This document shows, in pieces, positions 20,451 to 39,062 of a stretch of DNA of 64,000 bases (the stretch's first letter is position 1; every line of letters begins with the position of its first letter). The DNA lies in assembly GCF_009914755.1 (NCBI RefSeq), contig NC_060928.1; one strand, written 5' to 3'. The translations under genes and the position numbers were made by a program. Source of the DNA: the human T2T-CHM13v2.0 reference genome, Homo sapiens. Below the pieces are notes generated by a model. The model worked only from the letters and a program-made list of their open reading frames with translations, did no database searches and was not told the origin of the DNA.

Positions 20451-20681
20451 GGGATTAAGCTGTCTCTGGCGAACCAGGGAGCAGCTGGGTAGGCCGCGGG
20501 GGGCGCCTGTCATCGACGTCATTTCCTTCAGCAAGAGCGCCGCAGGAAACCACTTCCACACCACTGCTCCCCTCTCCCCCGGAAGCCCTTGTTGCTAGTA
20601 GGGGGCTGCATGGCACGCGCCCCTTTGCGTCCAGAGAATACCATAGTGCGGGGGAGCGCCAACCAGTGCCAGGACACTTAC

Positions 20682-20805
20682 CGAGCTGAAGAGTTGACAG
20701 GGAAGTGAAATCTCAGAAAGAAAGCCTTTCTGGGTTGGCCTGGTTACGGCTCACGCTTCCTTCCACAGAAACTTCAATTCCCAGAGGCAGGGGCGGTAGT
20801 TACGC
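20682..20805 (-). other. TRMT10A: TRMT10A non-coding exon 1 (TSS approximate)
   Basis: Strong donor TCG|gtaagt at 20682/20681; no upstream AUG in this segment. Confidence 0.75.
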
Positions 20806-20849
20806 AGTGGAGGCTACGGCGGTTGCGTCTTACGTCATCGAACTGCGGC

Positions 20850-21006
20850 CATTTCGAACCCGCAATGGAAGAAAGGGGAGGGGTTTATGCGGGGCGGGGT
20901 CTGGAGTTAGTGTTTTGGGAGTGGGAGGTAGTTACAGTGATGTCTGTTTTTTCCCGTTCAAGAATTAAGTGTGTACCTGCAGACGTGTATTCATTCATAT
21001 ATTCTT
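20850..21006 (+). other. MTTP: Upstream alternative MTTP first exon (ATG at 20865; TSS approximate)
   Basis: Donor TCTT|gtgagt at 21006/21007; ATG in good context (gcaATGG); 142 nt open, ending in phase 1. Confidence 0.7.
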
Positions 21007-22304
21007 GTGAGTATTGGATGAAGGAATTAAGATAGTCCCACTGTTAAAAATGCAAAACAACGAAGAAAGGCTCCTAATTTTTCTGTGTTGAAAATGAGAG
21101 AAAAACATCTCTTGCCTATATTATTTTTAATTTATACAGAAAATTACCATATCACATGATTTTACATAACTCAAGTGGAAAATTAAATTCAAAAAGTGAG
21201 TCAGATTCACAATAAAATGCATTTAAATTTAGAATCTGTAAGGCTTTTTTATGGCTGAAGTAAAACAGCCATAGCTTTACTCTTTATTCATTCCTTGAGC
21301 TATTTTTCCTATGCTGTTTTGCAAAACATCAGATGACATTTCATTGTTTATAATACTTGACCTTATATAATCTTTTGCTATATATAGATCATGTCAACTG
21401 AGAGAGAAATGAAATACAACCCCGTAGATTGTCATTTTCTATTTAGTTTTTTTCTCCTCTACTTCTAATAGGTGATTATTGCAGAATTTGAAGGTAAGAA
21501 TGAGGTTTGCATCTTGAATAGAAGACTGGCTTCTCATATAGAAAGAATTTTGAAGTAAATTATCCTTGAAGATATTTGAACATGTTTAAAGGCTTCAGTG
21601 AATAGAAAATTAAATCCAGAATTTGAGATTCTCTAAAAGAGCCGAAATTTCTTTGACTTTAGTTACAAAACTAAAGTCACTCTTGCCATAAGCCCTTAAA
21701 TTTTACTTGAAACACTGTATCAGCTATAACACTGTTGTGAGTCCCTCTTCTGTTTCTTCCTCATCTCAAACCTAAAAGATCTTTGTTAACTGAGCACTGG
21801 CAAAAAAGTCTGGATCCACTTCTGATCTGTTAGTAGGGCATCTTTTTTCAGCTGCCTCCATATGAGGGCAAAGAGTAGCTGAGGGAGGATTAGTAATTGG
21901 ATATGTAGCCCTTCACATGTAGGTCATTAAATTCAGGCTGGCAAAGTGATGTGCCAAATCTTTCCACAGCTGTTCAGTTGCTCCTATGGGATCTGTTTTA
22001 TAAATAATTATACAGTTTTTTCAGAGTTAATACCTGGCCTCCTTAGATATTTTAAACAAAGTTTTAAAGCAAAAAAAACCACTTCATATTCTAATAATGA
22101 AGTCAATAAATTTTCTTTTGACATAGACATTTAACTTTGTAGTCATTTGGTGCAAAATTTAAAATGATTCTATTATTAATCCAAAGTAAGCACCAAAAGA
22201 GCACCAGCAAAAGTCAATTTAACAAAAAATTGAAACATATAGAAAGTTTAAGACGGTGAAATCATGTGAAACAATATTTTCATTGATTTGTAAAATTTAT
22301 GTAT

Positions 22305-22720
22305 TTATTTATTTGACACATGTATCGAGTTCTATGCGTTTTGTCTTAGTATTGGTGATACAGAAATGACGAAATCATGCTCTCTGTGCTTAAGGAATCC
22401 TTAATCTAATAGGGGAGCCAGCAGTAAATAAATACCATACAACATGTACTTGAGATGCTTGTACTTTGAAAGAAGCAACTAAATGCTCCTTGAGGCAGAG
22501 GACATAGTTTTGGAGATTAAATAATTTTGTTTCATCTTGGAAAGTAAGTAGGAGTTGTACAGGTGTCAGAAAAGTGAAGAAGTTTAAGATATTGGGAACA
22601 GTGAAAGCAAAGACCTAAGCGTGTCATAGTTTTGCACATGACTGAAAAGCTGTGGATAGAATGAGGAAGAAGGAGGAGATAATAACCCTAAGGGCTTCTC
22701 TAACTTGGACAACTGTAGGA
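22305..22720 (-). mobile_element. L2 fragment (approximate)
   Basis: TTTATTTATTTGACACATGTATCGAGTTCTATGCG..GGTGATACAGAAATGA resembles an antisense L2 3' end. Confidence 0.55.
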
Positions 22721-22776
22721 ATGCAGTAACATTAACCGGGTCATTTAGGGAATACTGGAAGAAAAATAGGTTTTGA

Positions 22777-23083
22777 GGCCGGGCGTGGTGGCTCACGCCT
22801 GTAATCCCAGCACTTTGGGAGGCCTAGGCGGGCGGATCACGAGGTCAGGAGATCAAGACCACCCTGGCTAAAACAGTGAAACCCCGTCTCTGCTGAAAAT
22901 ACAAAAACTTAGCCGGGCGTGGTGGCGGGCGCCTGTAGTCCCGTCTACTCCGGAGGCTGAGGCAGGAGAATGGCGTGAACCCGGGAGGCGGAGCTTGCGG
23001 TGAGGCGAGATCCTGCCACTGCACTCCAGCCTGGGTGACAGAGTGATACTCCGTCTCAAAAAAAAGAAAAAAAAAAAAAAAAA
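22777..23083 (+). mobile_element. AluY
   Basis: GGATCACGAGGTCAGGAGATC and GAATGGCGTGAACCCGGGAGGCGGAGCTTG; TSD GAAAAATAGGTTTTGA. Confidence 0.95.
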
Positions 23084-24899
23084 GAAAAATAGGTTTTGAA
23101 AAAATAGTTTTGTTTTAAAATATGTGCATTCTGGGGAGTCTGCAGGACATCTGAGTAGAAACAGATTTTAAAAAGAATGAGCACATACTTGTAGTTTAAG
23201 CTAATATAAGAGGTTGGACTCAAAGAGATACTACTCCATGGGTTACAAATGCATAGTATCTATGGGGACTGGAAGGTAGCAAATGAGAGAAGCGTCTAGA
23301 AGGAAAGTATCACAAACCTGAGAGTGCAATTCCTCTTTAATCAGGATAAAAGTTCCAGGAGAGAATATGGGCTTAATGGCACCAGATCTCATTTTTTTAA
23401 GAACAGCCATAAATATGAAATCTGGTTTTAAAGTGTTGGCAGCTATTTTGTTTGTTTTAAAATACTGAGCAGACTAAATAAAATATGTCTGTGGGCTATA
23501 TTCAGACAGTTGGCAACCAGTTTGTTAAATTGGGCCCTAGTTGGTAGAATAAGAAGGAGGCTACAGACAGAACTAGAACTTTAGGACATAAAAATACAGT
23601 AATAACTATGATTATGAACCCCTCCGTAAGTTTGATTTCAAAACATTGGGCAATCATTACAAATTCCATTATTTTAAGCTTAATTCTAAGTCTTAGGATA
23701 CTCTTCAGCAAGTTGGGAGTTGAGGAGATGTGGAAATAGAGTAACACTTGTGAGTACTTTAATTTCAGGCTAGGAAAGCCAAAAAGAAACCCATTTTTAA
23801 ACATGACTTGAAAGGTAGCTACAAGGAAGAATCGGCCACTCATCTATAATCATTTCAACCTGCATTTCGACTGACTCCAAAAATACAGAAAAAAAACTTT
23901 AAAATGTATTTGTACATTTACATACTTATACATACATATTACTGGTATCCTCCCACGTAATATATGAATATTGAAGACTCTGGGAAGGTGATTAGACAGG
24001 CAGTGTAGTCTGTGAACTTCCTGAATCTCCTGATAAAAACAGGTAAAGCATCTAGGATAGACAATAACAAAATCCCAGAAGATAGCTATAACATAACTAG
24101 GTGAAAAGGAATCCCTAAAACCTCAAAATATGAACAGGAAGGAGCAAACCCAACTTAATATCAGCAACTGTGTAGGAGGGAATAGTGGGAAGACAACAGA
24201 TCATCTGAAGACCCTCAGAATGGGAAGGCCCCAAAACTGCCAACAAAAAATCACTAAAAAACAGAGGAAACCAATGTGAGGTCGGCGTCAAAACTGGCAG
24301 GTTGTTCAGCAGACTCTAAGCTCAGCTAAGTGTGAAGGAATGAGCAGGAGGGTCTGAAGCTGCTGGAGGGATGTGAGGCCTGTAAATTCTCGAAACCAAC
24401 AAACTGGAGCTCCGTTCTTGAACATAGCCCAACACTAGGGAGAAACTACTGAAAGTAGAATCCAAATTGAACAGAACAGAGACAATAGGGGCCAACAAAA
24501 AAGCAGATGCAGATAAAAGTGGGAGAGTAGAGAGGAGACAGATCTCAGAAAATATGAAGACACGTGTGTCATTTTATGAAATATTAGAAAAGGAACCTCT
24601 AGAGCCATGAAACTGGAAAAGATATTCTACCCAATCCTCCCTCTTAAAAATACAGAATAACTTAGCCTAAAAATATACCACAGAAAAGGATCATGGTCGA
24701 ATTTCATTTAAAGTTGCTATAATAGAAAAGAGAATATGAAGCAAAAAAAAGTGGATGAAAACTGTAATGTAATATTTCAAAACAGAGAGCAAGTTTTAAA
24801 TAATAGAAAATATTAGAGAACCACATAAAAATGAAAATGATTCAAAAATAAATATTTGAAGATGAATAAAAGAACTCAGACAATAATAAGAAATATAGA

Positions 24900-26360
24900 A
24901 AGCACACACATATATTCACCATTGTACTGGAAATTCTAACCAGTGCAATAAGATTTAAAAAGAAAATAAAAGGAAGGAAGAAATAAAACCATTTGTAGAT
25001 GACTGAATGTCTGTCTAGAAAATCCCCAAAAACATACCAAAAAAAGACGCTCACTAAACTAATAAGCAATTATAGTAAGGTCACATGATATAAGGTTAAC
25101 ATGCAAAAGTCAATTGCCTTCCTATATAGCAGCAGTGCAGAACTGGAACTTGAAATTAAAAAGAAACAACCCCTCCAAAATGAAATAGGTATAAATCTAA
25201 AAAATTTGAGCAGAATCTACATGAAGAAGTTGCAAAACTCTGATGAAAGAAGTCAAAGAAGATCTAAATAAATGGAGAGATATGTGTTCATAGATTGAGA
25301 GACTTGATGCTGTAAAAATGAGCACACCTAGTGTCCAGATCTTGGTTTCTAGTACAGTTCTTCAATAAAGGAAACCAGAGATTCTTGGAGAAATGAGTGA
25401 TTCTAAGATTGGAGTAAAAATGCACAAGATGACCTGGGAGCATCTTGCAGTGCCAGATAATAAGGAGATGCTAAAAACCAAAACTAAAACCAGAACCCAA
25501 ACAAAACACATTTATGGGGTATGTCAAAGGAACGGGGCCAACTGAAGGAACTCCCAGTGGCTAAAGATAGAACAATTGTTGCAACAAAGAAGGATTCAAC
25601 CTTAACCCAAAGTATAAATTAAATATCCACAAGTCCTTATTGATATAGTGATTAAATAAATCAATTGGAAATTAAAGACAAATTTCCCATGTGGAGGAAT
25701 TCAAATAATTTACGTAGCTACTCCACCCTCAAGGAGGAGGAACATAACTCCTCACTCCATAAATGTGGGATGTACATAGCATTTCCTTCCAAAGAGTGCA
25801 CTATGAAAAAAAGGGTGAAGAAAAACAATTAACTTTACAATGGAGAAATCTGACAACACTGCTGAGCCAGGTGATCAAAGTCAATGTAAATAGAGATAAA
25901 TCATGTTGATATTATGTACCTCTGATGTAATGTGGTATCAAGAAAATAGCACTTTACCTCTGTGGTATTCCTCCTCCAAACTTAACAACCTCAGTCAAAT
26001 CATGAGAAAAATACCACAAAAATTCACTAGAGGAATATCTTGCGAAGTATCTGACCATTTCTCCTCAGAGCTATTACAGCCAAGAGGAGCCTAAAGATAC
26101 TTGAGAACTAAATGTAATGTACCCTGGATGGGAGATTGGAAAAGAAAAAAAGAATTAGGTAAAAACAAAAGTAACCTAAATAAAGTATGAATTTTAGTTA
26201 ATAATATATTAATATTGGTTTATTAATAATAACAAATCAACTACACTAATGTAAGTTATTAACAGAAGTAACTGTGCAGGCTATATGAGAAATCTTTGTG
26301 TTATTTTAGCAATTTTTCTGTAAATCTAAAACTGTTATAAACAATAAACCTATTTTAAAG
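24900..26360 (+). mobile_element. L1M ORF2 3' remnant and 3' UTR (approximate)
   Basis: TATTCACCATTGTACTGGAAATTCTA, AAAAGTCAATTGCCTTCCTATA, GAAGATCTAAATAAATGGAGAGAT, and a TGTAAATCTAAAACTG..AATAAA end. Confidence 0.7.
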
Positions 26361-27325
26361 TAACATATACATTATACAATGTGAGAAAATATAATGGCAA
26401 AAAAAGAAAATGCAAGCACAAACTATATTCCGTCTCTCAGGGATAATAATTATTAAGGTGTTCAGTGAATATTGTTCTAATCCTTTTTCTGTGCTCATAT
26501 GTATGTATATTGTTTAAACAAGAAATCTCAAACCATATCTACATCTGCTGTTTACCAGACTGCTTCCTTTACTTACTAAGATATGGTAAATATACTATAT
26601 TTACAAGTTTACATATTTACATATACCAAACTATACAAAATACACACTTTTATAGTATTATTTTAAAATGGCTTCATGGAATTCTGTTGAATTGATACGC
26701 CATAATTTATTGAACTATTTTTGTCATTAACCAAACATGGTATCCAAATTTTCACTATACCACAAAGTTCCTTGTGACACCATTTTTAATGTTTTTTTTT
26801 TGTGCACTTTATGCCTAACTCCACAAGACACTGTTATTAAGAGCCAGTGTGTTTCTCCACCATACTTTCTTTGCTCTTCATCCCTTCTTGCATCTCAGAT
26901 TTTATCTGGGGTCAATTTTTTTCTAATTGAAGCAGATTTTTAAAGATGTCATTTGGAGGAGTCCTTTACTGGTAAATTTTCAGTTTTAGTTTTTCTGGAA
27001 AATCTCTATTTCAAGTTTATACTTAAAAGACATCTTTACAGAATATATATAGAATACTTAATTCACAAGTATTTTCTCTCAGCACATTGAAGACAACATT
27101 CTAATGTCTCCTAATTTTCATTGATACTGTTAATAATTTAGTAGTTGTCTGCTTCTCTTTCTTCTTGAAAATAATCTGTCCTCTCTATCTAGTTCCTTTA
27201 AATATCTTCTCTCTCTCTCTGATATTCTGCAGTTTAATTATGATGTATCTACTTGTGTGTATGTGTGTTTTAAAAATTATCCTGCTTAAGACTTATTGAG
27301 CCTCGTGAATCTGTGGATTGGTATC

Positions 27326-27815
27326 TGTGATAGGCAGACAATGGCTCCCCAAAGATCTTAAATGTCTTAATCTCCAGAACCTGTGATAGTCTAAGTTAAG
27401 GTTGTAGATGAAATTAAAGTTACCAATCCACAGACCTCAGGGTAAAAAGATTATCCTGGATTATTTAGGCAGGCCCAGTATAATCACAAGGATTCATAAA
27501 ACGGAAGAGGGAGACAGAAGAGATGGTCAGAGTGATATGAAGTAAAAAGGATTCAGCTTACTCTTGCTGGATTTGTAAATGCAGGAAGGGACCACGAGTC
27601 AAGGAATGCAGGTAGCTTCTAGAAGCTAGAAAAGGTAAGAAACAAATTCTCCCCTAAAGCCTCCAGAAAGGGATACACCTGCCAATACTTTCATTTTATC
27701 CCTGTGAGACCAGTGTTAGACTTCTGACCTCCAAGAGTATAAGACAATAAATCTGCTGTTTTAAGCCACTAAGTTTTGTGGTAATTTGTTATGGTAGCTA
27801 TGGAGAACTGATACA
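27326..27815 (+). mobile_element. MLT1D-type solo LTR nested in an older L1 fragment
   Basis: TGTGATAGGCAGACAATGGCTCCCCAAAGAT ... GATTATCCTGGATTAT ... AATAAATCTG..TTTAAGCCACTAAGTTT ... AACTGATACA. Confidence 0.85.
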
Positions 27816-29391
27816 GTGCCTTTCAATAGTTCTTGGAAATTCTTCAAATATATTCCCCAAATATTGCCTTTGCACCACTCACTCTATCCTCTATATCTCT
27901 TGACCTCTCTTTAACATTTTTTATTTTCTTATTTTGGTAATTATTTAAAACAATTGGCTTCTTGTTCCACTTCAAATAAATTCATATTTTTATATCTACA
28001 TATTAAGAATTAGTTCATAAATGTAATTGTTGTATCGTATATACTTTAAAAGGAAAATTGCATTTATACTTGGATATTATTATATTTTAGGTTTTGAAAT
28101 TTCTTTTTTTAAATGTCTGATAAATTTATTCTGATCAAAATTAAAATCTTATTGTATTTACAGTAGTCTACTAAAAGAGTTTACATCAATTCTCTCCTTT
28201 AAATGCTAGCAATTCAGTTTTGTGTGGTCAAAGATAATTTAGAATCCTTTTATGGTAACTGATATGATACAAAGGATTTTTTTGGTTGTTGTCAAATTTG
28301 TATGTGCGTATATATGTATAGGGGGTAGAAAATTTGGTTAGTGACTCTATTTTGGAAAAATGAATGTTCTTTTTGGAGTTTTAGATTCCCAGTGTTTCAA
28401 ACCAAGTTTGCTTTTGATAAGGAATTCAGTGAATCTTTATTTTCTCGTAGAGAATTTTTAAACAATACCTTTCAAAATATTGTATGTATTCCTATATAAT
28501 TTTGCCTTGGAATAAAAAAAGTCATCACATTAAGAATATTTTTAACTTAAGAAATTTTTTCAAGATTCTTTCAAAATGCTAACTCCCTCATTGATTTGAA
28601 AATACTTTTAGAGTTTAAACTATTATGACCATGTAGGGATAACTTAAAGTGTCCTTCTAAATTTTTTTTTCATTAATGTCATGCTTCTTTCTAAGAACAA
28701 AGTGTTTCAATGTTATAAACAGACTGTTTTTTCACATAGCTTTCATACATCCTGACTTTCTATATCTAGTAGGGTAATACATTTCCTTCCAACCTTTAGT
28801 GGGGTGAAGTTCATTTGTCTTCTAATCTAAGAAAATACGTTAACTCCTGACAACCTCTGACACTCAACAGAAACACAACTGTACTTTGGAATTAATCATC
28901 CATCTTTATTTCATAGTCTCCTTATTTATCAATGCAAATGGAAGTATAGCAAATATTTCACAGTGTCATGTACTACCTAAGGAATTTCATTGCAATAGCA
29001 TTGTTTTGAAATGTATCATTTGATTTTGATCTAACTATCATAGATCAGTTTTACCCCTGTATGTTCAGCCTGAATGTCTAACCACAATTTCACAAAAATC
29101 AAGGGCTCTGTTAGTTTTCATACAAAATTGTGATGACTTATTATGAAGACAGTCCCAATTAACAATTGCATGTCATCTGTAAGAAATCAATTTTTTTCTC
29201 ACTCCCCACCTGTAATTTTTTTTAAGCAAAGAAGAATACTTGGGTCTAGGTTTCAAGGTTTATTTTTCTGTAGTCCTAATATCACTTCAGTAAATTAATC
29301 TGAGACTCATTTTTCTAATATGTCAAATGACTGTTGTAAGGATTATTATAAAAACGTAAGGTGATTAACAAAGTATGTAATTGTTCCATAG

Positions 29392-29458
29392 ATGGCAGCT
29401 CTTGTTTTTTTACTGTGCTTTGCTTCTGCCCTGCTTCACATATTATGTAAAATAGCTG
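29392..29458 (+). CDS. Candidate alternative MTTP signal-peptide exon (MAALVFLLCFASALLHILCKIA-G)
   Basis: ATG, 22 stop-free mostly hydrophobic codons plus 1 nt, donor CTG|gtgagt in the same phase as MTTP exon 1; TATAAAA at 29347-29353. Expression is not shown by the sequence. Confidence 0.45.
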
Positions 29459-31470
29459 GTGAGTTTTAGGAGGTAGTGCTCACATGTTTGCACAGTGTTT
29501 GCTGTGGACGATCAACAGTAACAGAAGAGCATACTTCTTCGATACACAGAGTTTACTGAATTTGGAAAGGCTTTGGCATTCTTATGTCATCTGTAATGAA
29601 ACAATCTCCAGAAGTCTTTTCTAAAATGTCCTTGTAAAAAGAAAAAAGTTATGTTTATATTTTATAAAAGGATGATGTTATTTATAACCAGCAGAAGCAG
29701 CCTTATTTGAACATCTTATGTTGAAATTGCTACTTAATACAGTGACTCATAGGAGCTTTCTAGTGGAAATCAAATGCTCAAATGAAATAGAATTTAGTTT
29801 GTTAGGCAATAGTGATATGTCTTTTATTGGTTGGACTCTGGAAAACACTTGACAACGAATAGTACTTTACCCGAAGGGCACGTATCATGCACCACATAGC
29901 CTAACCACAAACATTAAAGGTCTTGTAACTGTGAGCCTCAAATGAAAATACATAAGGACAGCTCTCATACAATCAAATACAATACAAACTAGCTTTTAAT
30001 TTAAATAAATATGTAAGTAAAGTTCAAGTGACTATAATGATTTTATATCCCTATGTATGTATCACAGAAATTGTGGCAAACTGTAGAAATCTATTCAAAT
30101 GGAAAGTAACAAAGCACTTTCACATTGCCTTGTATTCAAAATCCCTACTCTTCATAAAAACTTATATTTCTTTAACAAAGCTACTTTTCTGTTTAACTCC
30201 CGGAAAACTTCGTATTTATAACTTAAGGGGGTTTCTCCAACCAAACAATTTATTTTTGCTAGGTACTATAGCTATATTTTTTATACAAAATTTGTGACAG
30301 CAAATGAAATTCTAATCCCAATAGAAGAACAAACAATTTTCATGTTTCGATCTTCATATATATAATTCAAGAGGAAATATGCTTAACTTTGTAGATTTTT
30401 ACATTTTAAATTGCATTGTGTCTGTATCAAGTCTACTATCTTTTACCTAGATTGTCTGGAAGATTTAAGCTCAAGGTTACGGTTTGAGAAAAGGGTTTTG
30501 AGAGTGACCAGGATAGATTTAAGAATTCATTTTATACTAAAATATGGCCATAAATATTTTTAAATACATTCAAATAGCCCTTTGCTGGCACATTTTTTCC
30601 CTTCTTTGCCAAAACATTCCCACAGGCGGCCTAAGTCACCTCATTTTATAGGTTTAGTAGGTTTAGCAGGCTTTATGTGCTCTAGTAGGGTTAGTAGGTT
30701 TTGTTCATATCAGGTCTCTCTCATGGGAGTTTCCAGGGACAAGGATTGCTTCAGTTAGTATGGCCTTAGCCATACTAGGGTATTTGCTTTAATTCTACAG
30801 AAGTTTTCTAATTAATATTCTGTAGCAAAAGAACTAAGATCTGGAATTCCCCCTCTTAATCTCTTCCTAGAAATGAGATTCAGAAAGGACAGGACTGCAT
30901 CCAGCCTGTTTGGGAACTCAGACAAATGTGTGTTGTCACAGACACAAATAGAGGTCTACTATGAAATAATTGGCTTGCTAGTGTGCTAATGACAGACAAT
31001 GCTGATTTGCTCCAACCTCATACAGTTTCACACATAAGGACAATCATCTATGTTTCATGAAAGTTCTATCTACTTTAACATTATTTTGAAGTGATTGGTG
31101 GTGGTATGAATTAACAGTTTAAATTTAAATCCTAAAATTCAGTGTGAATTTTTTATAATAGCATAAAAATTCAAAGATGTCCATACAAGAAAAATTAAAA
31201 TTTGGTTAGGTTTAGCAGAGTTTGAGAATCCTTACTACCCTCCCACATAGTATTGTAATGTGAATATAGGCAGTTACTATTACAGGCATAATGATGATTA
31301 TGTATTAAGCAGAAAGAAGTATCACCACCAGTTTTTTTCTTTGAATGCCCCTCAGTACTTCTGCATTTATAGGATGGTAGACTGGTTTGGTTTAGCTCTC
31401 AAAAGTGAAAACATTTAAAGTTTCCTCATTGGGTGAAAAAAATTAAAAAGAGTGAGAGACTGAAAACTGC

Positions 31471-31565
31471 AGCCCACCTACGTTTAATCATTAATAGTGA
31501 GCCCTTCAGTGAACTTAGGTCCTGATTTTGGAGTTTGGAGTCTGACCTTTCCCCAAAGATAAACA
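31471..31565 (+). promoter_or_regulatory. MTTP: MTTP proximal (liver/intestine) promoter
   Basis: AGCCCACCTACG (31471-82), HNF1 TTTAATCATTAAT (31483-95), HNF4/DR1-like TGAACTTAGGTCC (31510-22), DR1 TGACCTTTCCCCA (31543-55), GATAAACA at the TATA position (31558-65); TSS about 31593. Confidence 0.85.
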
Positions 31566-31678
31566 TGATTGTTGCAGGTTCTGAAGAGGGTCACTCCCTC
31601 ACTGGCTGCCATTGAAAGAGTCCACTTCTCAGTGACTCCTAGCTGGGCACTGGATGCAGTTGAGGATTGCTGGTCAAT

Positions 31679-31739
31679 ATGATTCTTCTTGCTGTGCTTT
31701 TTCTCTGCTTCATTTCCTCATATTCAGCTTCTGTTAAAG
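31679..31739 (+). CDS. MTTP: MTTP exon 1 (signal peptide, c.1-61), microsomal triglyceride transfer protein large subunit
   Basis: MILLAVLFLCFISSYSASVK-G; donor AAG|gtaagt. Confidence 0.97.
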
Positions 31740-33182
31740 GTAAGTTTGTGTTGCCTTTTGCTAAACTTTAATTTCCATCTTTGGAGTTGGAGGCAGATAC
31801 GTGCGTGTGTGTGTGTTTGTGTGAGTGAATAGTGAAAGAGTTTCTGACTAAACTATCTTCAAAACCATGTAACTTTGGAATGTTTGTGAAAGCATGGCTG
31901 AGTTGAAATGAAAACCAAATTCAAATCCCTACAAACATTAAGAAAACAGATATTTCTTTTAGTTTCAGTTCCTCAGACCAGTGTGTTCTTGCTTCAATTT
32001 CTCATTCATGGTCTGTTTTTAAAAGAAGGAAAAAAGATACCCACTATTGTTACCTGCTGTTGTTGGTCACATTGAATGCAGCTCCTTCATTTGAATTGTA
32101 AATGAGGATTTTTTTTAAAAACCGAGTTCTTAAATTTTCTTTTAGTTGCTTAGCAATGTGACCTCAAGAAGAATTAGACCCAATGAAAAAGGCATTTGAT
32201 TTGCCAAAGAATTATGAATGAAATGGCACAACATATATTTAATTCCGTTACAATTAAAAAATGATAGAATTCATAGTGAATTAAAGAAAATTAAATTTCC
32301 TGATACAGATTTAAGAAATAAGACATTATCTTTGGAAAAATAATGTTGCTACTTACAGTTTCTATTTTAAGATGAAATTAATTTTAAAAATACATATGAA
32401 TTAATACCATTGAAAAGGCAAGTGAAAAAACATTTTATGAGGAATGGTTTCATAAAACTGTTGTGAAGTGTATTAATATAGAATCATGTTTCAGATCAGC
32501 TACATTATAAACATCGGTTTTCCAAATGCTGCATTGTGTAAAATGATCACTTTTTAGTTTCTTAGGAAGACACACTGTTAAAAACCAATTGATATAACAA
32601 CATAGCGTTATAGGGACCAATTTTAAAACCATGTACTCTAAGTAATTGATAGAAAACAATTCACTTATAAACTTATAAAACCTGTTAGGGATAAATGTGG
32701 CTTTTGATATTAAAGTAAAGTTTGCCTCAGGATTTTTTGTGTAGAAAATTTCCACATGAGGAAAAAAACCTAATCTTCATTATTGGAGCAATAGAGGGTT
32801 AAATTTAAACCAATTCACCTCAGCAAATCACACTGTAGGTTCTTGAACTAAAGAAAATATTTTCACCAATTTCTAAATATTTACTATTTAAACATACAGT
32901 TCTTACTTGGACAAAAGAAATTTTTTAATGAGAAGAAGATTTATAAATTATATCTGACTGAGAGTGTTATATAGAGGACTTACTATTTCATCTGCCAAAT
33001 AAACTGTTGAGTAGTCAAAATATGTGTGATTTAAATACCATAGTATCAAACCTAATACCATAAGTATTTTGAGAAAAATAATTGAGACATGGTACTTATC
33101 ATGAGCTTCTCCTGTTTTCCCATTTTATAAACTAGAACATTGGGTGACCTCATGTTTTCAAATATACTTATAAAAAATTTAA

Positions 33183-33552
<370 letters not shown>

Positions 33553-34013
33553 TTAGAATATTATAGGTAGCTACAGTTTATTGTAAACAAGCTTAGTAGT
33601 AAATCTAGATTTTTAAAGCTTGAAACATATATAATTTAGGGGCCACTTTTGAGAAAAGATTACAAAAATATCTTACTATTGCAAAGGTTACTGAAAAAGA
33701 TATGGCATGTGGATACATTGCTAGGGTCCACTTCTGGAGTCTTTGGAAGGATCCTGGGCAAGAGAGCTTAAGCTTCATCAGCATCATGGTACGTTGCTTA
33801 TGCTGATATCATAAATTAAAAGTGTACAACTTGAGAGCTTCTTTACCTAGATGGAATAACTTTTTGCATTATGGTACCATGATTTAATTATAGATTCTTT
33901 GCCCTTGTAACAACTGACATTAATTAGCAAACAACTTGTGAAGAGTTTACCTTAAAATCAGTCCATTTAAAATTTGGGGATCCCATGCCTCATTGCCTCA
34001 AAACTCATCTCTA

Positions 34014-34514
<501 letters not shown>

Positions 34515-36019
34515 CTAAAGACTCAAGTTTTCCCTACTTTTTCTTAATTATACTTTGTCATGGTTGGACTATTTTCAGCGCCTTCTCTGTGTTTTCCTTA
34601 TATAGTATTTTTACCTTCTATTTAATTTTGTCACCTTTAAACCTGTACACTTCCTTCATTTCCAGTCTTTCTCTCAATCCCTCACCCCACCCTTACTTTT
34701 TAGTCAATTTTTATTAATCATCTTCCAGTTCTTTTTTCTTCTTACCCTTCATCTTCTTTTTTAACTTCTGACCCTTTAGTTTTCTGTTGGGTTCATAAAT
34801 GCCATTACCTATCACCCTTATCATCACTGCATGTCTCTTCAAACCTCACCAATAACTCAGCTCTGCTTTGTCTTCTTGACTAAGCCAGTTATCAGTGATT
34901 GTACTCATATAAATCTGACAAAGGAGTATTTAAAAAATATTTCTTGAAGATTCAAAACTAACAGTTTTGTTGCTTTTAAGTCACTTAAAAATTCTAAATG
35001 CACTTGAAGGGCAAATGAAAGAGATTCTGACTTTTTTGGCTAATATTACTTTCTGTTTTGGTTTTATCTAACAACAGTTATCAAAAAATATTACTATACA
35101 TACTCTGAAGAGCACTATCCTACAAAAGGAATTAAGTCAACAATATAAATGGGACATGCCCCAATGCCCAGTGTTGCCAGATCTCTGCAAAGCATAAACA
35201 GAGAAATACTTATCAAAAAGGAAAGTATAAGAGGATGACACTCTAGCACAGTCCACCTTATTTGAACCGTTTTAGGCTTTATCTCCTGTTGAAAGAGGTA
35301 GGAAACAGTTTGGAGGAATAAAGGGCCCATTCTTTTCTGTGCTTTAACATTTCCTACTCATAGTCAAAAATTGATTTATTATATGGCCAGTAAAGTAGAG
35401 GTAAGAAAAGAAGTGAATAACATAATAGTTTGGAAAGCTTTGGAATTTAAGAAAGGTTACCTTCCTACAAATGTTTCGTAGTTATTTTAACCAGAGGACA
35501 CCTTAATATAGTCCACAGAACTTGGATTTTGGTAAATTTAAACATCAAATCTGCATTATATTTGCTATGTTGGGTTGAACTTGGGGTCAGCTTCTATCTG
35601 CTGTCACACAATGCTTACTTTTCAGAATTGCTCTGAGGATTAGATAAGACAACATGTATTTCCTTTATGCCCTATGTGGAATTTGATAGGTGTCATAAAA
35701 AGAAGGCCTCCTGACCGAAATATTTTTCCTGACCAGAAAGCCAGTATTTGAACCCGCTATAGAGTCCCCAATTACAATGCAGAAGACATAGAGATAAGAG
35801 GGAATCCCAGTCTTCATCCCCTTCAAGGTTTTTCCTGACTCTCTTTGCCTTCTGTGTCTCACACCTCAGTTTCTGCCTGACTTGGTGCTTGGACACAGCT
35901 TGGTTTTGTGTATACACATAGATCCTTTCATACTTCCTTCTCCTGGCTCTTCTTGATTCCTATGAAAATGCTTGTCCCTTTTCTTTGAAGGTTCGACAGA
36001 TTATGTGACTTCACTACCC

Positions 36020-36950
36020 AAAATTCTATGGCAGCGTCCCATCTCACTCAAACTCCCCAAATCTTCCTGCCACCCATAGGTACCTCCTTTACCTTGTCTC
36101 CTTCACTGTGTCTTTTACTTATTTATTTCCAGCCTCTTTGGTCTCCCTGCTCTTCCTCCATTACACCTGCAGGAGCCCTCCTCGGGGCCTTTGCACTTGC
36201 TGTTTCCTCTGTGAGGGGAAGGGGTAGAAAGGGTAGGAGTTGGGGGAGGGGGATGCCCTTCCCACAGATATCCATGTAGCTCACCGAAAACCTTTGTCCA
36301 AAATGTCACCTTTCCACAGAGGTTTTTCTCTCAGCATCTCCATTCCCTTTCCTGCTTCAGTTTTCTTTATGAGCACTTCTATCATACTATATAACTTGCT
36401 TATGTACTCATTTTTTTATTGCCCTTCTCCATCGCATTTAAATGTACCTTCCAATTTACATTTACAAAGGGTAGAAAATTTACAAAGGGTATTAAATTTA
36501 CAAAAGGTAGAAACTTTGTCTGCTGGTTGGGTGCGGTGGCTCACACCTGTAATCCCAGCACTTTGGGAGGGTGAGGTGGGTGGATTGCTTGAGCTCAGGA
36601 GTTCAGGACCAGCCTGGCCAACAAGGCAAAACCCTATCTCTACAAAAATATAAAAATTAACTGGGCTTAGTGGCGTGAGTGTGTGGTCCCAACTACTCAG
36701 AAGGCTGAGGTGGGAGGATCACTTGAGCCTGGAGATGAAGGTTGCAGTGAGCCGAGATCGCATGACTGCACTCCAGCCTGGGTGACAGAGTGAGACCCTG
36801 TCTCAAAAAAAAAAAAAAAAAAAAAGTAAAGAAAGAAGAAGAAACTTTCTCTGCCTTTCTCTGCTTGTTAACTGGTGTAGTCCCAGAGCCTTAAAAAGTA
36901 CTTACTATTCAACAGGTACTCACTATATTCTAGTTGAATGAATGAATAAA
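36020..36950 (+). mobile_element. L2 3' fragment interrupted by an AluJ
   Basis: GGGCCTTTGCACTTGCTGTTTCCTCTG, AAATGTCACCTT, ...GTTGAATGAATGAATAAA. Confidence 0.7.
36525..36839 (+). mobile_element. AluJ
   Basis: GGATTGCTTGAGCTCAGGAG and GGGAGGATCACTTGAGCC; TSD AGAAACTTTSTCTGC. Confidence 0.9.
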
Positions 36951-37066
36951 TTTCTAGCTCACTGCCTAGGAATGGAAAATAATTCAACCTATAGTTTTAG
37001 AGATATATAGTATAGATAAGAGCATCATCTTTAGAGACAGACAGCCTGGATTAAAATCATATCTCC

Positions 37067-37372
<306 letters not shown>

Positions 37373-38642
37373 TCATGTCTCTATGATGAATTACCTGGGT
37401 GACCTTAGGTAAATTATATAGTTTCTGTGTCCCCTCAGTCTCTTCATCTATAAAATGAGACTAATAATAGTGCCTACCTCATTAGATTTTTGTGAGGATT
37501 AAATAAGTTAATACATGTAACATGCAGATGATGGATTTTTGACCACCATTTCCTCTGGGCAAGTACGTGCTGTCATATGTAGAGGAGACAGTGAACAGAT
37601 TGTTACTGTGTAGGTGGGTAAGGCCTTTTCAGGCATTGCAAAGTAATTTTTGCTATCACCTTTCTCAGCTGCTTTGCTTCTTGTCTAGTCACCCCAAACC
37701 CCTTTTCTGTCCCTCTCCCCATATGTATATTTCCTGAGAGAAAAAAAGATTATGGTTGCGTGTCATAGTAAACTGGGCAATGCAACCCCATTAGCATTGA
37801 GGAATAAGGTAAACTGAAGTCTTTTTTAACTATCTCCTGAGAGCCATACATAGAAAATATACAAAAGAAAAAAGATTTATGTGACCATACATTTTAAGTC
37901 ATCTCTGGGAAAGACTTGCTCCTTGGCATTTCTTTGGGCTAGGTAAACTGAATTGGATACTGTGTGAACTCATTCATACATCAGTTTTCTTGGCTCACAG
38001 TACAGATTTGTATACTATTTGATCTTTTTAAATTACCCCATGCCAACTTTAAGCCTGTACTAAGATTTCATATAGTAAAACATTATTTTATTCGGGCACA
38101 GCTAATTTAAAGTTACATATGTGCAACGCTGAAATGTACCTTTGTACTAAAAGTTTGATAATTACATTAATAGAGTAAATTACACTGAAGAGATGTTTCT
38201 TAAATATCAAAAATGTCCAAATTAAAGAACTTCCTTCTAACCACTAAAACTACCTTGGCATTGATCTGCTTGCATTTAAATAATACGTTAATTACGAATG
38301 GCTCATATTAAATTTATCAACCAATTCCTGGTGGGTCCTCTACTTGAAATCATGTTCATATAATTAAGAGAAATACAATGGCATTTAAACAAAAAAAAAC
38401 CCAAAATATCTATAGTTCAACCATGGCACTATCGGATAAGTGATTAGGAATACAAACTAAGGTTCTCTGAAATGGGAGTTTATTTGTTTGTTTTTTGTTT
38501 GTTTATCTATGTTTTTCAAGTCAATGATTTCAGCAGATGAAGTAGCACCATGTTTCAATCAGCGAATATTTACCAAGCTTCCTGAGCCCCACTGTGGTAG
38601 AGAGATGCACTGATGGTGAGACAGCATGTTCCCTTACAATGA

Positions 38643-39062
<420 letters not shown>

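What the first reader, a model, noticed from the sequence alone, without database searches (positions are those of the whole stretch)
29327..29464. Intact-looking second signal-peptide exon for MTTP, 2.3 kb upstream of exon 1
Seen: ATG at 29392 opens MAALVFLLCFASALLHILCKIA and ends in a consensus donor CTG|GTGAGT after 67 nt. That is phase 1, the same as canonical exon 1 (61 nt), so joining to exon 2 restores G-HTTGL in frame. The peptide resembles the canonical leader (ALVFLLCFAS vs [10 protein letters not shown]). A TATAAAA sits at 29347-53, an HNF1 half-site (ATTAAC) at 29364-69, and an AG lies immediately before the ATG, so it could be a first exon or a cassette exon. Recollection, unverified: mouse Mttp has an alternative exon 1B 2-3 kb upstream whose peptide starts MTVV.. 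and contains QLLLFY..MQNS. Here MTVV is read from the ATG at 29327, and QLLFFY and M*NS appear in the other two frames. Inference: this is the orthologue of mouse exon 1B, with the mouse frame broken but a different signal-peptide frame open, possibly an ancient duplicate of exon 1.
Basis: partly seen in the sequence, partly recalled or inferred. Interest (0 to 1): 0.85.

Follow-up and report, generated by a model that had tools for sequence, protein, structure and literature searches.

The report
Human remnant of mouse Mttp exon 1B
About 2.3 kb upstream of the normal first coding exon of human MTTP lies a recognisable counterpart of the mouse alternative first exon 1B, which two laboratories reported they could not find in human; the rodent reading frame is broken, a different frame is open, and nothing here shows that human cells use it.

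Summary
ATG 29392 opens 22 codons that run to a strong donor (CTG|GTGAGT, GT at 29459-60) in phase 1, the phase of canonical exon 1A, so it would join exon 2 in frame.

The orthology claim is supported.
- A published mouse exon-1B primer has its single best match in the window at 29391-29411 (17 of 21).
- A rodent-like exon-1B N-terminus (P0124) can be traced in the human DNA, but across two other frames. Those frames are closed by frameshifts, a TAA at the Gln codon and one extra base before the donor.
- The human ATG aligns with mouse ACG.

The open human frame is weak evidence of function.
- All three frames of this T-rich stretch are hydrophobic.
- 6 of 43 other strong donors in the window also carry an in-phase ATG ORF.
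- RefSeq has no exon here, and 0 of 155 retrieved MTTP protein entries carry this N-terminus. One tamarin gene model uses its last seven codons and its donor.
- Published human 5'-RACE, EST and cDNA work did not find it.

Similarity to exon 1A does not exceed composition.

Most likely this is a decayed exon with a fortuitous ORF (about 0.6). Real use as an alternative first exon is about 0.2. Junction reads and a mammalian alignment would decide.

The parts
29327..29338 (+). ATG ACT GTT GTA (MTVV). Possible counterpart of mouse ATG-1 of exon 1B. It lies in the same frame as QLLFFY but is followed by stops at 29357, 29366 and 29378.
   Evidence: It matches the mouse cloning primer at 9 of 11 bases, and all four codons are synonymous. 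This is not significant alone: 213 of 1332 tiles score as well.
29347..29353 (+). TATAAAA motif, 39 nt upstream of the ATG
   Evidence: The motif occurs 23 times on the + strand and 29 on the - strand of this AT-rich window, so it is weak evidence for a promoter.
29364..29369 (+). ATTAAC, an HNF1-like half site
   Evidence: It occurs 23 times on the + strand and 25 on the - strand of the window. The name 'HNF1 half-site' is a recalled consensus, not a tool result.
29389..29391 (+). TAG: an in-frame stop directly before the ATG. Its AG is the possible acceptor.
   Evidence: The 20 nt tract upstream is 50% pyrimidine.
29391..29411 (+). Stretch matching the mouse exon-1B primer GACGCCAGCTTTTGTTATTTT. 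The human ATG (29392-94) lies opposite mouse ACG.
   Evidence: 17 of 21, the unique best match among about 128,000 positions on both strands; only 2 of 344 tiles reach the same score, one of them being the tile that holds this site.
29392..29458 (+). Human open frame (frame 0): 22 codons MAALVFLLCFASALLHILCKIA plus the G of a split Gly codon; 67 nt, phase 1
29396..29428 (+). First part of the rodent frame (frame +1): QLLFFYCALLL against rodent QLLLFYAVLLL. This frame ends at TAG 29453-55.
   Evidence: tblastn rank 2 of 333 HSPs, 8 of 11 identical, E 0.21..
29406..29456 (+). Second part of the rodent frame (frame +2): FFTVLCFCPASHIM*NS against rodent FYAVLLLFPTLCAMQNS. TAA at 29448-50 stands where rodents have Gln. 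Asn-Ser (29451-56) is followed by TG instead of G before the donor.
   Evidence: (rank 25, 7 of 17 identical), and the Asn-Ser-Gly mature N-terminus in Dougan 2007
29440..29460 (+). ILCKIAG. It matches the whole N-terminus (MLCDIAG) of a Saguinus oedipus MTTP gene model, in the same frame and with the same donor.
   Evidence: the only HSP at E of 10 or less, 5 of 7 identical..
29459..29464 (+). Donor GTGAGT. The 9-nt site CTG|GTGAGT matches the consensus at 8 of 9 positions.
   Evidence: it equals or exceeds 10 of 11 annotated MTTP donors in the window.
31679..31739 (+). Coding part of canonical exon 1A ([20 protein letters not shown] plus G), used for comparison
38674..38861 (+). Exon 2, the acceptor that the candidate donor would join in frame

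Best explanation
The segment 29327-29464 is the human counterpart of the rodent Mttp alternative first exon 1B (exon v1), about 2.3 kb upstream of exon 1A.

In rodents this exon supplies a second promoter and a second signal peptide (..RQLLLFYAVLLLFPTLCAMQ|NSG) that splices directly to exon 2.

In human the donor and the T-rich hydrophobic core are still recognisable, but the rodent reading frame is destroyed:
- three stops follow the MTVV ATG;
- the frame shifts between the core and the C-terminal part;
- the Gln codon is TAA;
- one extra base before the donor changes the phase.

A third frame has an ATG at 29392 (ACG in the mouse primer) and stays open to the donor in the right phase. I take this ORF to be most likely fortuitous. 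DNA that once encoded a signal peptide is T-rich, so it reads as hydrophobic in every frame and is poor in stop codons.

On this reading the element is a decayed pseudo-exon that human cells use not at all, or only at trace level. Human MTP then comes from exon 1A and the far-upstream exon at 20899-21006, as published.

Shown here: the sequence features, the match to mouse and rodent sequences, and the broken rodent frame. Inferred: the lack of use.
For: Orthology
- The mouse exon-1B primer has its unique best match at 29391-29411 (17 of 21). In the same test, 3 of 5 control primers from mouse exons 1A and 2 also ranked first at their known human sites.
- The rodent-like N-terminus P0124 matches 29396-29428 as the second best of 333 tblastn HSPs, and 29406-29456 in another frame.
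- Asn-Ser codons sit directly before the donor, as in the Edman-sequenced mouse protein.
- The position is 2,287 nt upstream, ATG to ATG, against 2.6-2.7 kb in mouse.

Broken frame
- One search shows stops at 29357, 29366, 29378, 29448 and 29453.

ORF not special
- All three frames are hydrophobic, with maximum Kyte-Doolittle means over 10 residues of 2.92, 2.76 and 2.24.
- 6 of the 43 other strong donors in the window also have a phase-1 ATG ORF.

Poor start context
- The context is tagATGG, with T at -3.
- uATGs lie at 29320, 29327 and 29375 if transcription starts as far upstream as in mouse.

No sign of use
- The RefSeq table given with the finding lists no exon here.
- 0 of 155 MTTP entries carry the MAALVF.. 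N-terminus.
- Among 126 candidates, only the tamarin model has the ..IAG junction.
- Suzuki and Swift searched human ESTs and did 5'-RACE. They report upstream exons only at about 10.6 and 3.9 kb (PMC4891672, Results and Discussion read).
- Dougan et al. sequenced MTP cDNA from human dendritic cells, PBMC and a B-cell line and found only the liver form; those data are unpublished (PMC2137905, passages).
Against: - The ORF plus donor is the only unannotated instance of its kind in 128 kb of sequence, counting both strands. The donor is as good as or better than 10 of 11 real MTTP donors.
- The fused N-terminus passes rule-of-thumb signal-peptide checks: a hydrophobic core, and (-3,-1)-allowed cleavage sites after residues 13, 19 and 23.
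- A Saguinus oedipus gene model (P0048) starts MLCDIAG and then continues with exon 2. It therefore uses this donor in the human frame. The frame-0 phase is thus at least as old as the split from New World monkeys, and one annotation pipeline accepted it.
- The absence from protein databases is weak evidence. Entries are clustered, and rare tissue-specific first exons are often unannotated.
- The human experiments in print covered few tissues.
- No expression data, no SignalP and no mammalian genome alignment were available here.
Confidence: 0.62

Rival explanations
1. It is a working alternative first exon of human MTTP. Transcription starts shortly upstream of 29392, perhaps from the TATAAAA at 29347. 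Translation starts at 29392, and the 23-residue leader acts as a signal peptide. The exon splices to exon 2, giving MTP with a slightly different or identical mature N-terminus. This would be the human equivalent of mouse MTP-B, read in a new frame.
For: - Intact ATG, 22 open codons, phase 1 and a strong donor.
- It is one of only 2 hydrophobic phase-1 ORF-plus-donor combinations in the window; the other is the real exon 1A.
- Signal-peptide-like by simple rules.
- It sits where the mouse has a functional exon.
- The tamarin model P0048 uses the same frame and donor.
Against: - No RefSeq exon, and 0 of 155 protein entries with this N-terminus.
- Published 5'-RACE, EST and cDNA work did not find it.
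- The ATG is ACG in the mouse primer.
- Hydrophobicity does not discriminate between the frames.
- T at -3, and either a very short 5'UTR or three uATGs.
- The tamarin model starts only 7 codons before the donor, not at an upstream ATG. This hints that the full ORF is not shared.
Confidence: 0.2
2. The relic is transcribed or spliced without coding function. It could act as a non-coding or poison exon joined from the far-upstream exon (21006 to 29392), where it would shift the frame of the upstream ATGs. Alternatively it could be a remnant promoter or enhancer that modulates MTTP transcription.
For: - AG at 29390-91 and a strong donor delimit a 67-nt exon.
- The literature shows that MTTP is regulated through alternative 5' exons and uORFs.
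- A further upstream exon about 3.9 kb from exon 1A is reported with no coding role.
Against: - The acceptor tract is only 50% pyrimidine, below 9 of 9 MTTP acceptors in the window.
- No annotated transcript or RefSeq functional element lies here (annotation table supplied with the finding).
- No Rfam family matches in 28000-31500.
Confidence: 0.1
3. There is no homology at all: a chance ORF next to a chance donor in AT-rich intron sequence, and the mouse resemblance is coincidence.
For: - 4 of 5 mouse exon-1B primers do not have their best window match here.
- The local matches of the MTVV primer and of primer TGCCGTGCTGTTACTCTTTC are at chance level (213 of 1332 and 208 of 2284 tiles).
- The best tblastn HSP of the rodent N-terminus lies elsewhere (50260-50231, - strand), and the HSP at the site has E 0.21.
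Against: - The one primer that does match is the unique top hit of about 128,000 positions and lands exactly on the ORF start. The chance that the top hit falls in a preset 170-nt stretch on one strand is roughly 0.001.
- The weaker matches are in the mouse order: 29327, then 29391, then 29427, then the donor.
- Asn-Ser sits directly before the donor, and a stop stands exactly at the rodent Gln codon.
- The distance from exon 1A is comparable to that in mouse.
Confidence: 0.08

Closest known systems
Mouse Mttp exon 1B / exon v1 (MTP-B, MTPv1; Mohler 2007, recalled and not held; Dougan 2007, PMC2137905; Suzuki and Swift 2016, PMC4714884)
   Same: - An alternative 5' exon a few kb upstream of exon 1A on the same strand.
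- A T-rich hydrophobic core.
- A donor in phase 1 that would skip exon 1A and join exon 2.
- Recognisable sequence similarity (17 of 21 with one primer; QLLFFY and M*NS).
   Different: - The rodent frame is closed in human by stops, frameshifts and a changed phase.
- The open human frame is a different frame, with an ATG that the mouse primer lacks.
- There is no evidence of transcription.
- The mouse promoter is described as TATA-less, whereas the human stretch has a TATAAAA of doubtful meaning.
Human MTTP exon 1B of Suzuki and Swift (10.5 kb upstream; window 20899-21006; transcripts MTP-B and MTP-C)
   Same: An upstream alternative 5' exon of the same gene, with in-frame ATGs when spliced to exon 2.
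   [quoted passage not shown]
Canonical MTTP exon 1A signal-peptide exon (31679-31739)
   Same: Same phase, similar length (61 against 67 nt), T-rich (49% against 43% T), a hydrophobic leader without a charged N-region, and a strong donor.
   Different: - Exon 1A is conserved almost letter for letter in 121 of 155 retrieved mammalian entries.
- Its similarity to the candidate does not exceed what composition gives.
Pseudo-exons and decayed alternative first exons that carry a new ORF in another frame (overprinting)
   Same: Retained splice signal, lost ancestral frame, and a new ORF in another frame of the same DNA.
   Different: Overprinting implies that the new frame is expressed and selected. 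That is not shown here.

Membership tests
Orthologue of rodent Mttp exon 1B (exon v1) | Lies a few kb upstream of exon 1A, on the same strand, inside the MTTP locus | tested here: met
   ATG 29392 is 2,287 nt upstream of ATG 31679. Mouse values are 2.6-2.7 kb.
Orthologue of rodent Mttp exon 1B (exon v1) | Sequence similarity to mouse exon 1B above background | tested here: met
   Primer GACGCCAGCTTTTGTTATTTT matches 17 of 21 at 29391, the unique best hit in the window. However, 4 of 5 exon-1B primers are not best here, and the tblastn HSP has E 0.21.
Orthologue of rodent Mttp exon 1B (exon v1) | Donor in phase 1 directly after the Asn-Ser codons, joining exon 2 | tested here: inconclusive
   The donor is present and strong, and Asn-Ser codons lie at 29451-56. 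But one extra base (TG instead of G) puts that frame in phase 2. Use of the donor cannot be tested here.
Orthologue of rodent Mttp exon 1B (exon v1) | Encodes the rodent signal peptide in an open frame from an ATG | tested here: not met
   There are stops at 29357, 29366, 29378 and 29448, a stop at 29453 in the other frame, and a frame change between 29429 and 29445.
Orthologue of rodent Mttp exon 1B (exon v1) | Transcribed and spliced to exon 2 in non-hepatic tissues | not testable with these tools
   No expression data were held. The literature read reports no such human transcript.
Secretory signal peptide | N-terminal Met followed by a hydrophobic core of at least 7-8 residues | tested here: met
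   The maximum Kyte-Doolittle mean over 8 residues is 3.19, against 3.56 for the canonical leader.
Secretory signal peptide | Cleavage site with small residues at -3 and -1 | tested here: met
   Allowed sites lie after residues 13 (ASA), 19 (ILC) and 23 (IAG), by a simple rule. SignalP was not available, so this is a rule of thumb and not a prediction.
Secretory signal peptide | Positively charged N-region | tested here: not met
   No Lys or Arg precedes the core. The canonical MTTP leader lacks one too.
Alternative first exon with its own promoter | Core promoter and mapped transcription start | not testable with these tools
   A TATAAAA lies at 29347-53, but the motif occurs 52 times in the window on both strands together. 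No CAGE or RACE data were held.
Tandem duplicate of exon 1A | Similarity to exon 1A beyond shared composition, extending into the flanks | tested here: not met
   The peptide score is reached by 492 of 5000 shuffles. The DNA score of 15.5 is reached by 12 of 2842 tiles and 16 of 2000 shuffles. The best wider alignment (28900-30100 against 31200-32300) lies outside both exons.

The most novel reading that the evidence does not exclude
Humans, and perhaps all anthropoid primates, kept exon 1B as a working alternative first exon of MTTP. Its signal peptide is now read in a different frame from the rodent one: a signal-peptide exon that survived frame-breaking mutations by switching frame, because T-rich DNA encodes a usable hydrophobic leader in any frame. 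Human non-hepatic cells would then have a second MTP promoter after all, contrary to the printed statements that this kind of isoform exists only in mice.
Probability: 0.17. Interest if true: 0.7.

Novelty: new member of a known kind. Interest (0 to 1): 0.4.

Why it matters
In mouse, exon 1B explains several things: MTP expression in haematopoietic cells and adipocytes, CD1d lipid loading and NKT-cell development, and the residual MTP left in exon-1-floxed knockouts.

Three papers read here state that humans have no counterpart:
- PMC2137905: human MTP 'not regulated by alternate splicing';
- PMC3337244: 'only in mice'.

A recognisable human counterpart corrects the first of these statements at the level of DNA. 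It also turns 'is there a human MTP-B-like isoform?' into a direct test of one junction (29458 to 38674).

If the exon were used, three things would follow. It would bear on how variants in exon 1A and its promoter are read in abetalipoproteinaemia. It would bear on MTP in human antigen-presenting cells and adipocytes. It would also be a clean example of a signal peptide surviving by a change of frame.

If it is not used, it is an ordinary decayed exon.

Tried and rejected
- **Other mouse exon-1B primers.** TGTTAACCGATTAACCTGGG, the Dougan exon-v1 primer GGTCTCACTGAATCTGGAGAGGAA, the MTVV cloning primer and TGCCGTGCTGTTACTCTTTC have no significant match in 29100-29470. The Dougan primer has 7 equal best sites at 16 of 24. 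One of them is 29549-29572, 91 nt downstream of the donor, where a human ORF reads SLLNLER against mouse VSLNLER. I treat this as chance, roughly 3% for one primer before correcting for four primers, but it is not explained. The mouse-human alignment upstream of 29391 therefore stays unresolved.
- **Local duplication.** Only short two-copy matches were found (19 of 22 at 29170 and 29584; 13 of 14 at 29311 and 29617), with inconsistent spacing. Rejected.
- **Exon-1A duplicate hypothesis.** Not above composition.
- **Ictidomys partial protein P0101 (..WRVHLCLKSWFQNG before exon 2).** I considered it as an exon-1B relative. It has no match at the site (its only HSP there ranks 201 and lies on the other strand). 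Dropped.
- **Prolemur P0153 N-terminus.** It maps to intron 1 near exon 2, not here.
- **Direct protein search with the 23-residue ORF.** I did not pad the query. The tamarin protein's first 40 residues were searched instead.
- **Literature.** The peptide strings MTVVMGK and MAALVFLLCF are in 0 papers. Searches for MTTP with 'alternative first exon', 'alternative promoter' or 'exon 1B' gave nothing on a human exon at this place. One search was too loosely framed to be informative.
- **Papers and files not available.** Mohler 2007 (JBC) is not held. The supplementary primer table of PMC2668751 cannot be read; it may hold further mouse exon-1B primers. Figure 6 of PMC4714884 and Figure 1B of PMC2137905, which show the mouse sequence, are not held.
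- **Rfam.** No family in 28000-31500.
Full report
**What is there**

- An ATG at 29392 opens 22 codons (MAALVFLLCFASALLHILCKIA).
- The next base, G at 29458, is followed by GTGAGT, so the 67-nt stretch ends in phase 1.
- The coding part of canonical exon 1A (31679-31739, 61 nt) ends in the same phase. Exon 2 begins at 38674 with the two bases that complete a Gly codon, so a splice from 29458 to 38674 stays in frame.
- A TAG lies directly before the ATG (29389-91).
- TATAAAA (29347-53) and ATTAAC (29364-69) are present.
- The other two frames read ..RWQLLFFYCALLLPCFTYYVK* and ..CFFTVLCFCPASHIM*NSW*.
- ATG 29327 reads MTVVRIIIKT*.
- The stretch is single copy in the genome. It holds no Rfam family.

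**Is it more than chance?**

Over the whole window and both strands, 45 GT sites match MAG|GTRAGT at 8 or 9 of 9 positions. Of these, 8 have an ATG ORF of 13-45 codons ending in phase 1. Only 2 of the 8 have a strongly hydrophobic core: the real exon 1A and this candidate.
- The donor (8 of 9) equals or exceeds 10 of 11 annotated MTTP donors in the window.
- TATAAAA (23 on the + strand, 29 on the - strand) and ATTAAC (23 and 25) are common in this 35% G+C window and add little.

**Relation to mouse exon 1B**

The literature read says mouse Mttp has an alternative first exon 2.6-2.7 kb upstream of exon 1A that splices to exon 2. It gives a different signal peptide and a mature protein starting Asn-Ser-Gly (PMC2137905, passages; PMC4714884, passages).

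The same groups state that no similar sequence could be found 2-5 kb upstream of human exon 1 (PMC4891672). A review says the isoforms exist 'only in mice' (PMC3337244).

I had no mouse genome, so I used published mouse primers as probes.
- The exon-1B primer GACGCCAGCTTTTGTTATTTT has its single best ungapped match in about 128,000 positions at 29391-29411 (17 of 21; the next best are two sites at 15 of 21). The human ATG then lies opposite mouse ACG.
- In the same test, control primers from mouse exon 1A and exon 2 ranked first at their human sites in 3 of 5 cases (21 of 24 at 31693; 15 of 20 at 31559; 17 of 20 at 38769). The other two ranked just below chance hits.
- The other four exon-1B primers do not have their best match here.
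- Restricted to the expected places, the MTVV cloning primer matches 29327-37 (9 of 11) and TGCCGTGCTGTTACTCTTTC matches 29427-35 (8 of 9). These lie in the mouse order, but each is at chance level (213 of 1332 and 208 of 2284 tiles).

**A rodent-type peptide**

Protein searches with human exon 2, with a vole MTTP segment, and with the tamarin N-terminus returned 155 distinct MTTP entries. One of them is P0124, an unnamed record 94% identical to vole MTTP over residues 22-140. It begins MMGKCQVSDGRQLLLFYAVLLLFPTLCAMQNSG before exon 2.
- This agrees with the mouse primers (MTVVMGK.., RQLLLF, AVLLLF) and with Asn-Ser-Gly.
- By tblastn against the window, its N-terminus hits 29396-29428 in frame +1 (QLLFFYCALLL, 8 of 11, rank 2 of 333 HSPs, E 0.21).
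- It also hits 29406-29456 in frame +2 (FFTVLCFCPASHIM*NS, 7 of 17, rank 25).
- The top HSP lies elsewhere (50260-50231, - strand). The protein match alone is therefore not significant and serves only as support for the primer result.

**State of the rodent frame in human**

Read against the rodent peptide, the human DNA has the following lesions.
- Three stops lie between the MTVV ATG and the core (29357, 29366, 29378).
- The frame changes between about 29429 and 29445.
- TAA stands at the Gln codon (29448-50).
- After Asn-Ser the human reads TG|GT where the rodent exon must end G|GT.

The open human frame is neither of the two frames that carry the rodent residues. It coincides with the proper phase only at the donor. 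Which frame is ancestral cannot be told without outgroups.

**Does the open frame argue for function?**

Only weakly.
- The stretch is 43% T, and all three frames are hydrophobic (maximum Kyte-Doolittle means over 10 residues of 2.92, 2.76 and 2.24). A signal-peptide-like reading is therefore expected in any frame.
- An in-phase ATG ORF occurs at 6 of the 43 other strong donors. Given a retained donor, the ORF has a chance probability of the order of 0.15.
- By simple rules the fused leader has a hydrophobic core and allowed cleavage sites after residues 13, 19 and 23. SignalP was not available.
- The start context is poor (T at -3).
- A start site as far upstream as in mouse would put uATGs at 29320, 29327 and 29375 before it. 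A TATA-driven start would leave a 5'UTR of roughly 15 nt (the spacing rule is textbook knowledge).
- As a cassette exon it has a weak acceptor: 50% pyrimidine, against 60-90% at 9 of 9 MTTP acceptors.

**Evidence on use**

The RefSeq table supplied with the finding has no exon here in any of the 3 transcripts.

The 155 protein entries sort as follows.
- 121 have the canonical leader.
- 11 read in from intron 1.
- 1 has the rodent exon-1B leader.
- The remainder have other upstream exons.
- 0 have MAALVF...
- One entry, a Saguinus oedipus 'hypothetical protein' (P0048, 1027 aa), begins MLCDIAG and continues with exon 2. Its seven residues map to 29440-29460 (ILCKIAG, 5 of 7), the only HSP at E of 10 or less.
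- No other entry among 126 candidates shares this junction.

The tamarin entry shows that the donor and the frame-0 phase exist in a New World monkey. It is a gene model, though, and it starts 7 codons before the donor rather than at an upstream ATG.

In print:
- human ESTs and 5'-RACE gave upstream exons at about 10.6 and 3.9 kb only;
- cDNA from human dendritic cells, PBMC and a B-cell line gave only the liver form, from unpublished data.

**Duplicate of exon 1A?**

Not supported.
- The best DNA local alignment (29408-38 against 31683-712, score 15.5) is reached by 12 of 2842 tiles, three of which are exon 1A itself, and by 16 of 2000 shuffles.
- The peptide score is reached by 492 of 5000 shuffles.
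- No similarity extends into the flanks.

**Verdict**

- Orthology to mouse exon 1B is well supported for 29391-29464 and uncertain for the 5' part. I put orthology at about 0.9 overall.
- The most likely reading is a decayed alternative first exon with a fortuitous in-phase ORF (0.62).
- Real use as a coding first exon is possible (0.2).
- A non-coding role is at 0.1, and pure chance at 0.08.
- The point of interest is that a human counterpart, said in print not to exist, is recognisable and leaves one specific junction to test.

**Limits**

No expression data, mammalian alignments, SignalP or full mouse sequence were available. Figures of the mouse sequence and one supplementary primer table could not be read.

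Noticed in passing
window 20610-20702 (+): This stretch encodes, at 31 of 31 residues, the N-terminus of a Homo sapiens 'partial' MTTP protein record (P0002, 178 aa). That first exon lies upstream of RefSeq exon 20899-21006 and overlaps the first exon of TRMT10A on the opposite strand (20682-20808). This fits a shared bidirectional promoter region.
   Followed up: partly
window 20865-20972 (+): This is the human counterpart of the long N-terminus of macaque and colobus MTTP isoforms (P0036-38 and P0046; 31 of 36 and 29 of 36 identical). It is open in human and overlaps the published human exon 1B.
   Followed up: partly
window 21156-21195 (+): An ORF MILHNSSGKLNSK ends at a donor AAA|GTGAGT in phase 1. 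It matches the first 13 residues of Kogia breviceps MTTP isoform X1 (P0145) at 10 of 13. This may be another alternative 5' coding exon that some mammals' gene models use.
   Followed up: no
window 29484-29624 (+), esp. 29549-29572: A 46-codon ORF downstream of the candidate donor reads ..QSLLNLER... The Dougan mouse exon-v1 primer, which reads VSLNLER, matches here at 16 of 24. This is one of 7 equal best sites in the window. The site is out of order relative to the mouse exon. It is probably chance, but it is unexplained.
   Followed up: partly
window 38650-38673 (+): 11 of 155 retrieved MTTP entries, from unnamed transcript-like records and some species annotations, start with a read-in from the last bases of intron 1 (..CHYLYAG). 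These are retained-intron or ORF-calling artefacts, not alternative exons.
   Followed up: no
window 38499-38531 (+): The N-terminus of a Prolemur simus MTTP entry (P0153) matches intron 1 about 150 nt upstream of exon 2 (7 of 11, E 0.004).
   Followed up: no
literature (PMC2137905 against P0124): Dougan et al. place the signal-peptidase cut between residues 21 and 22. In the rodent-like N-terminus P0124, Asn is residue 31, and counted from mouse ATG-1 it must lie later still. It is unclear which ATG was taken as residue 1.
   Followed up: no
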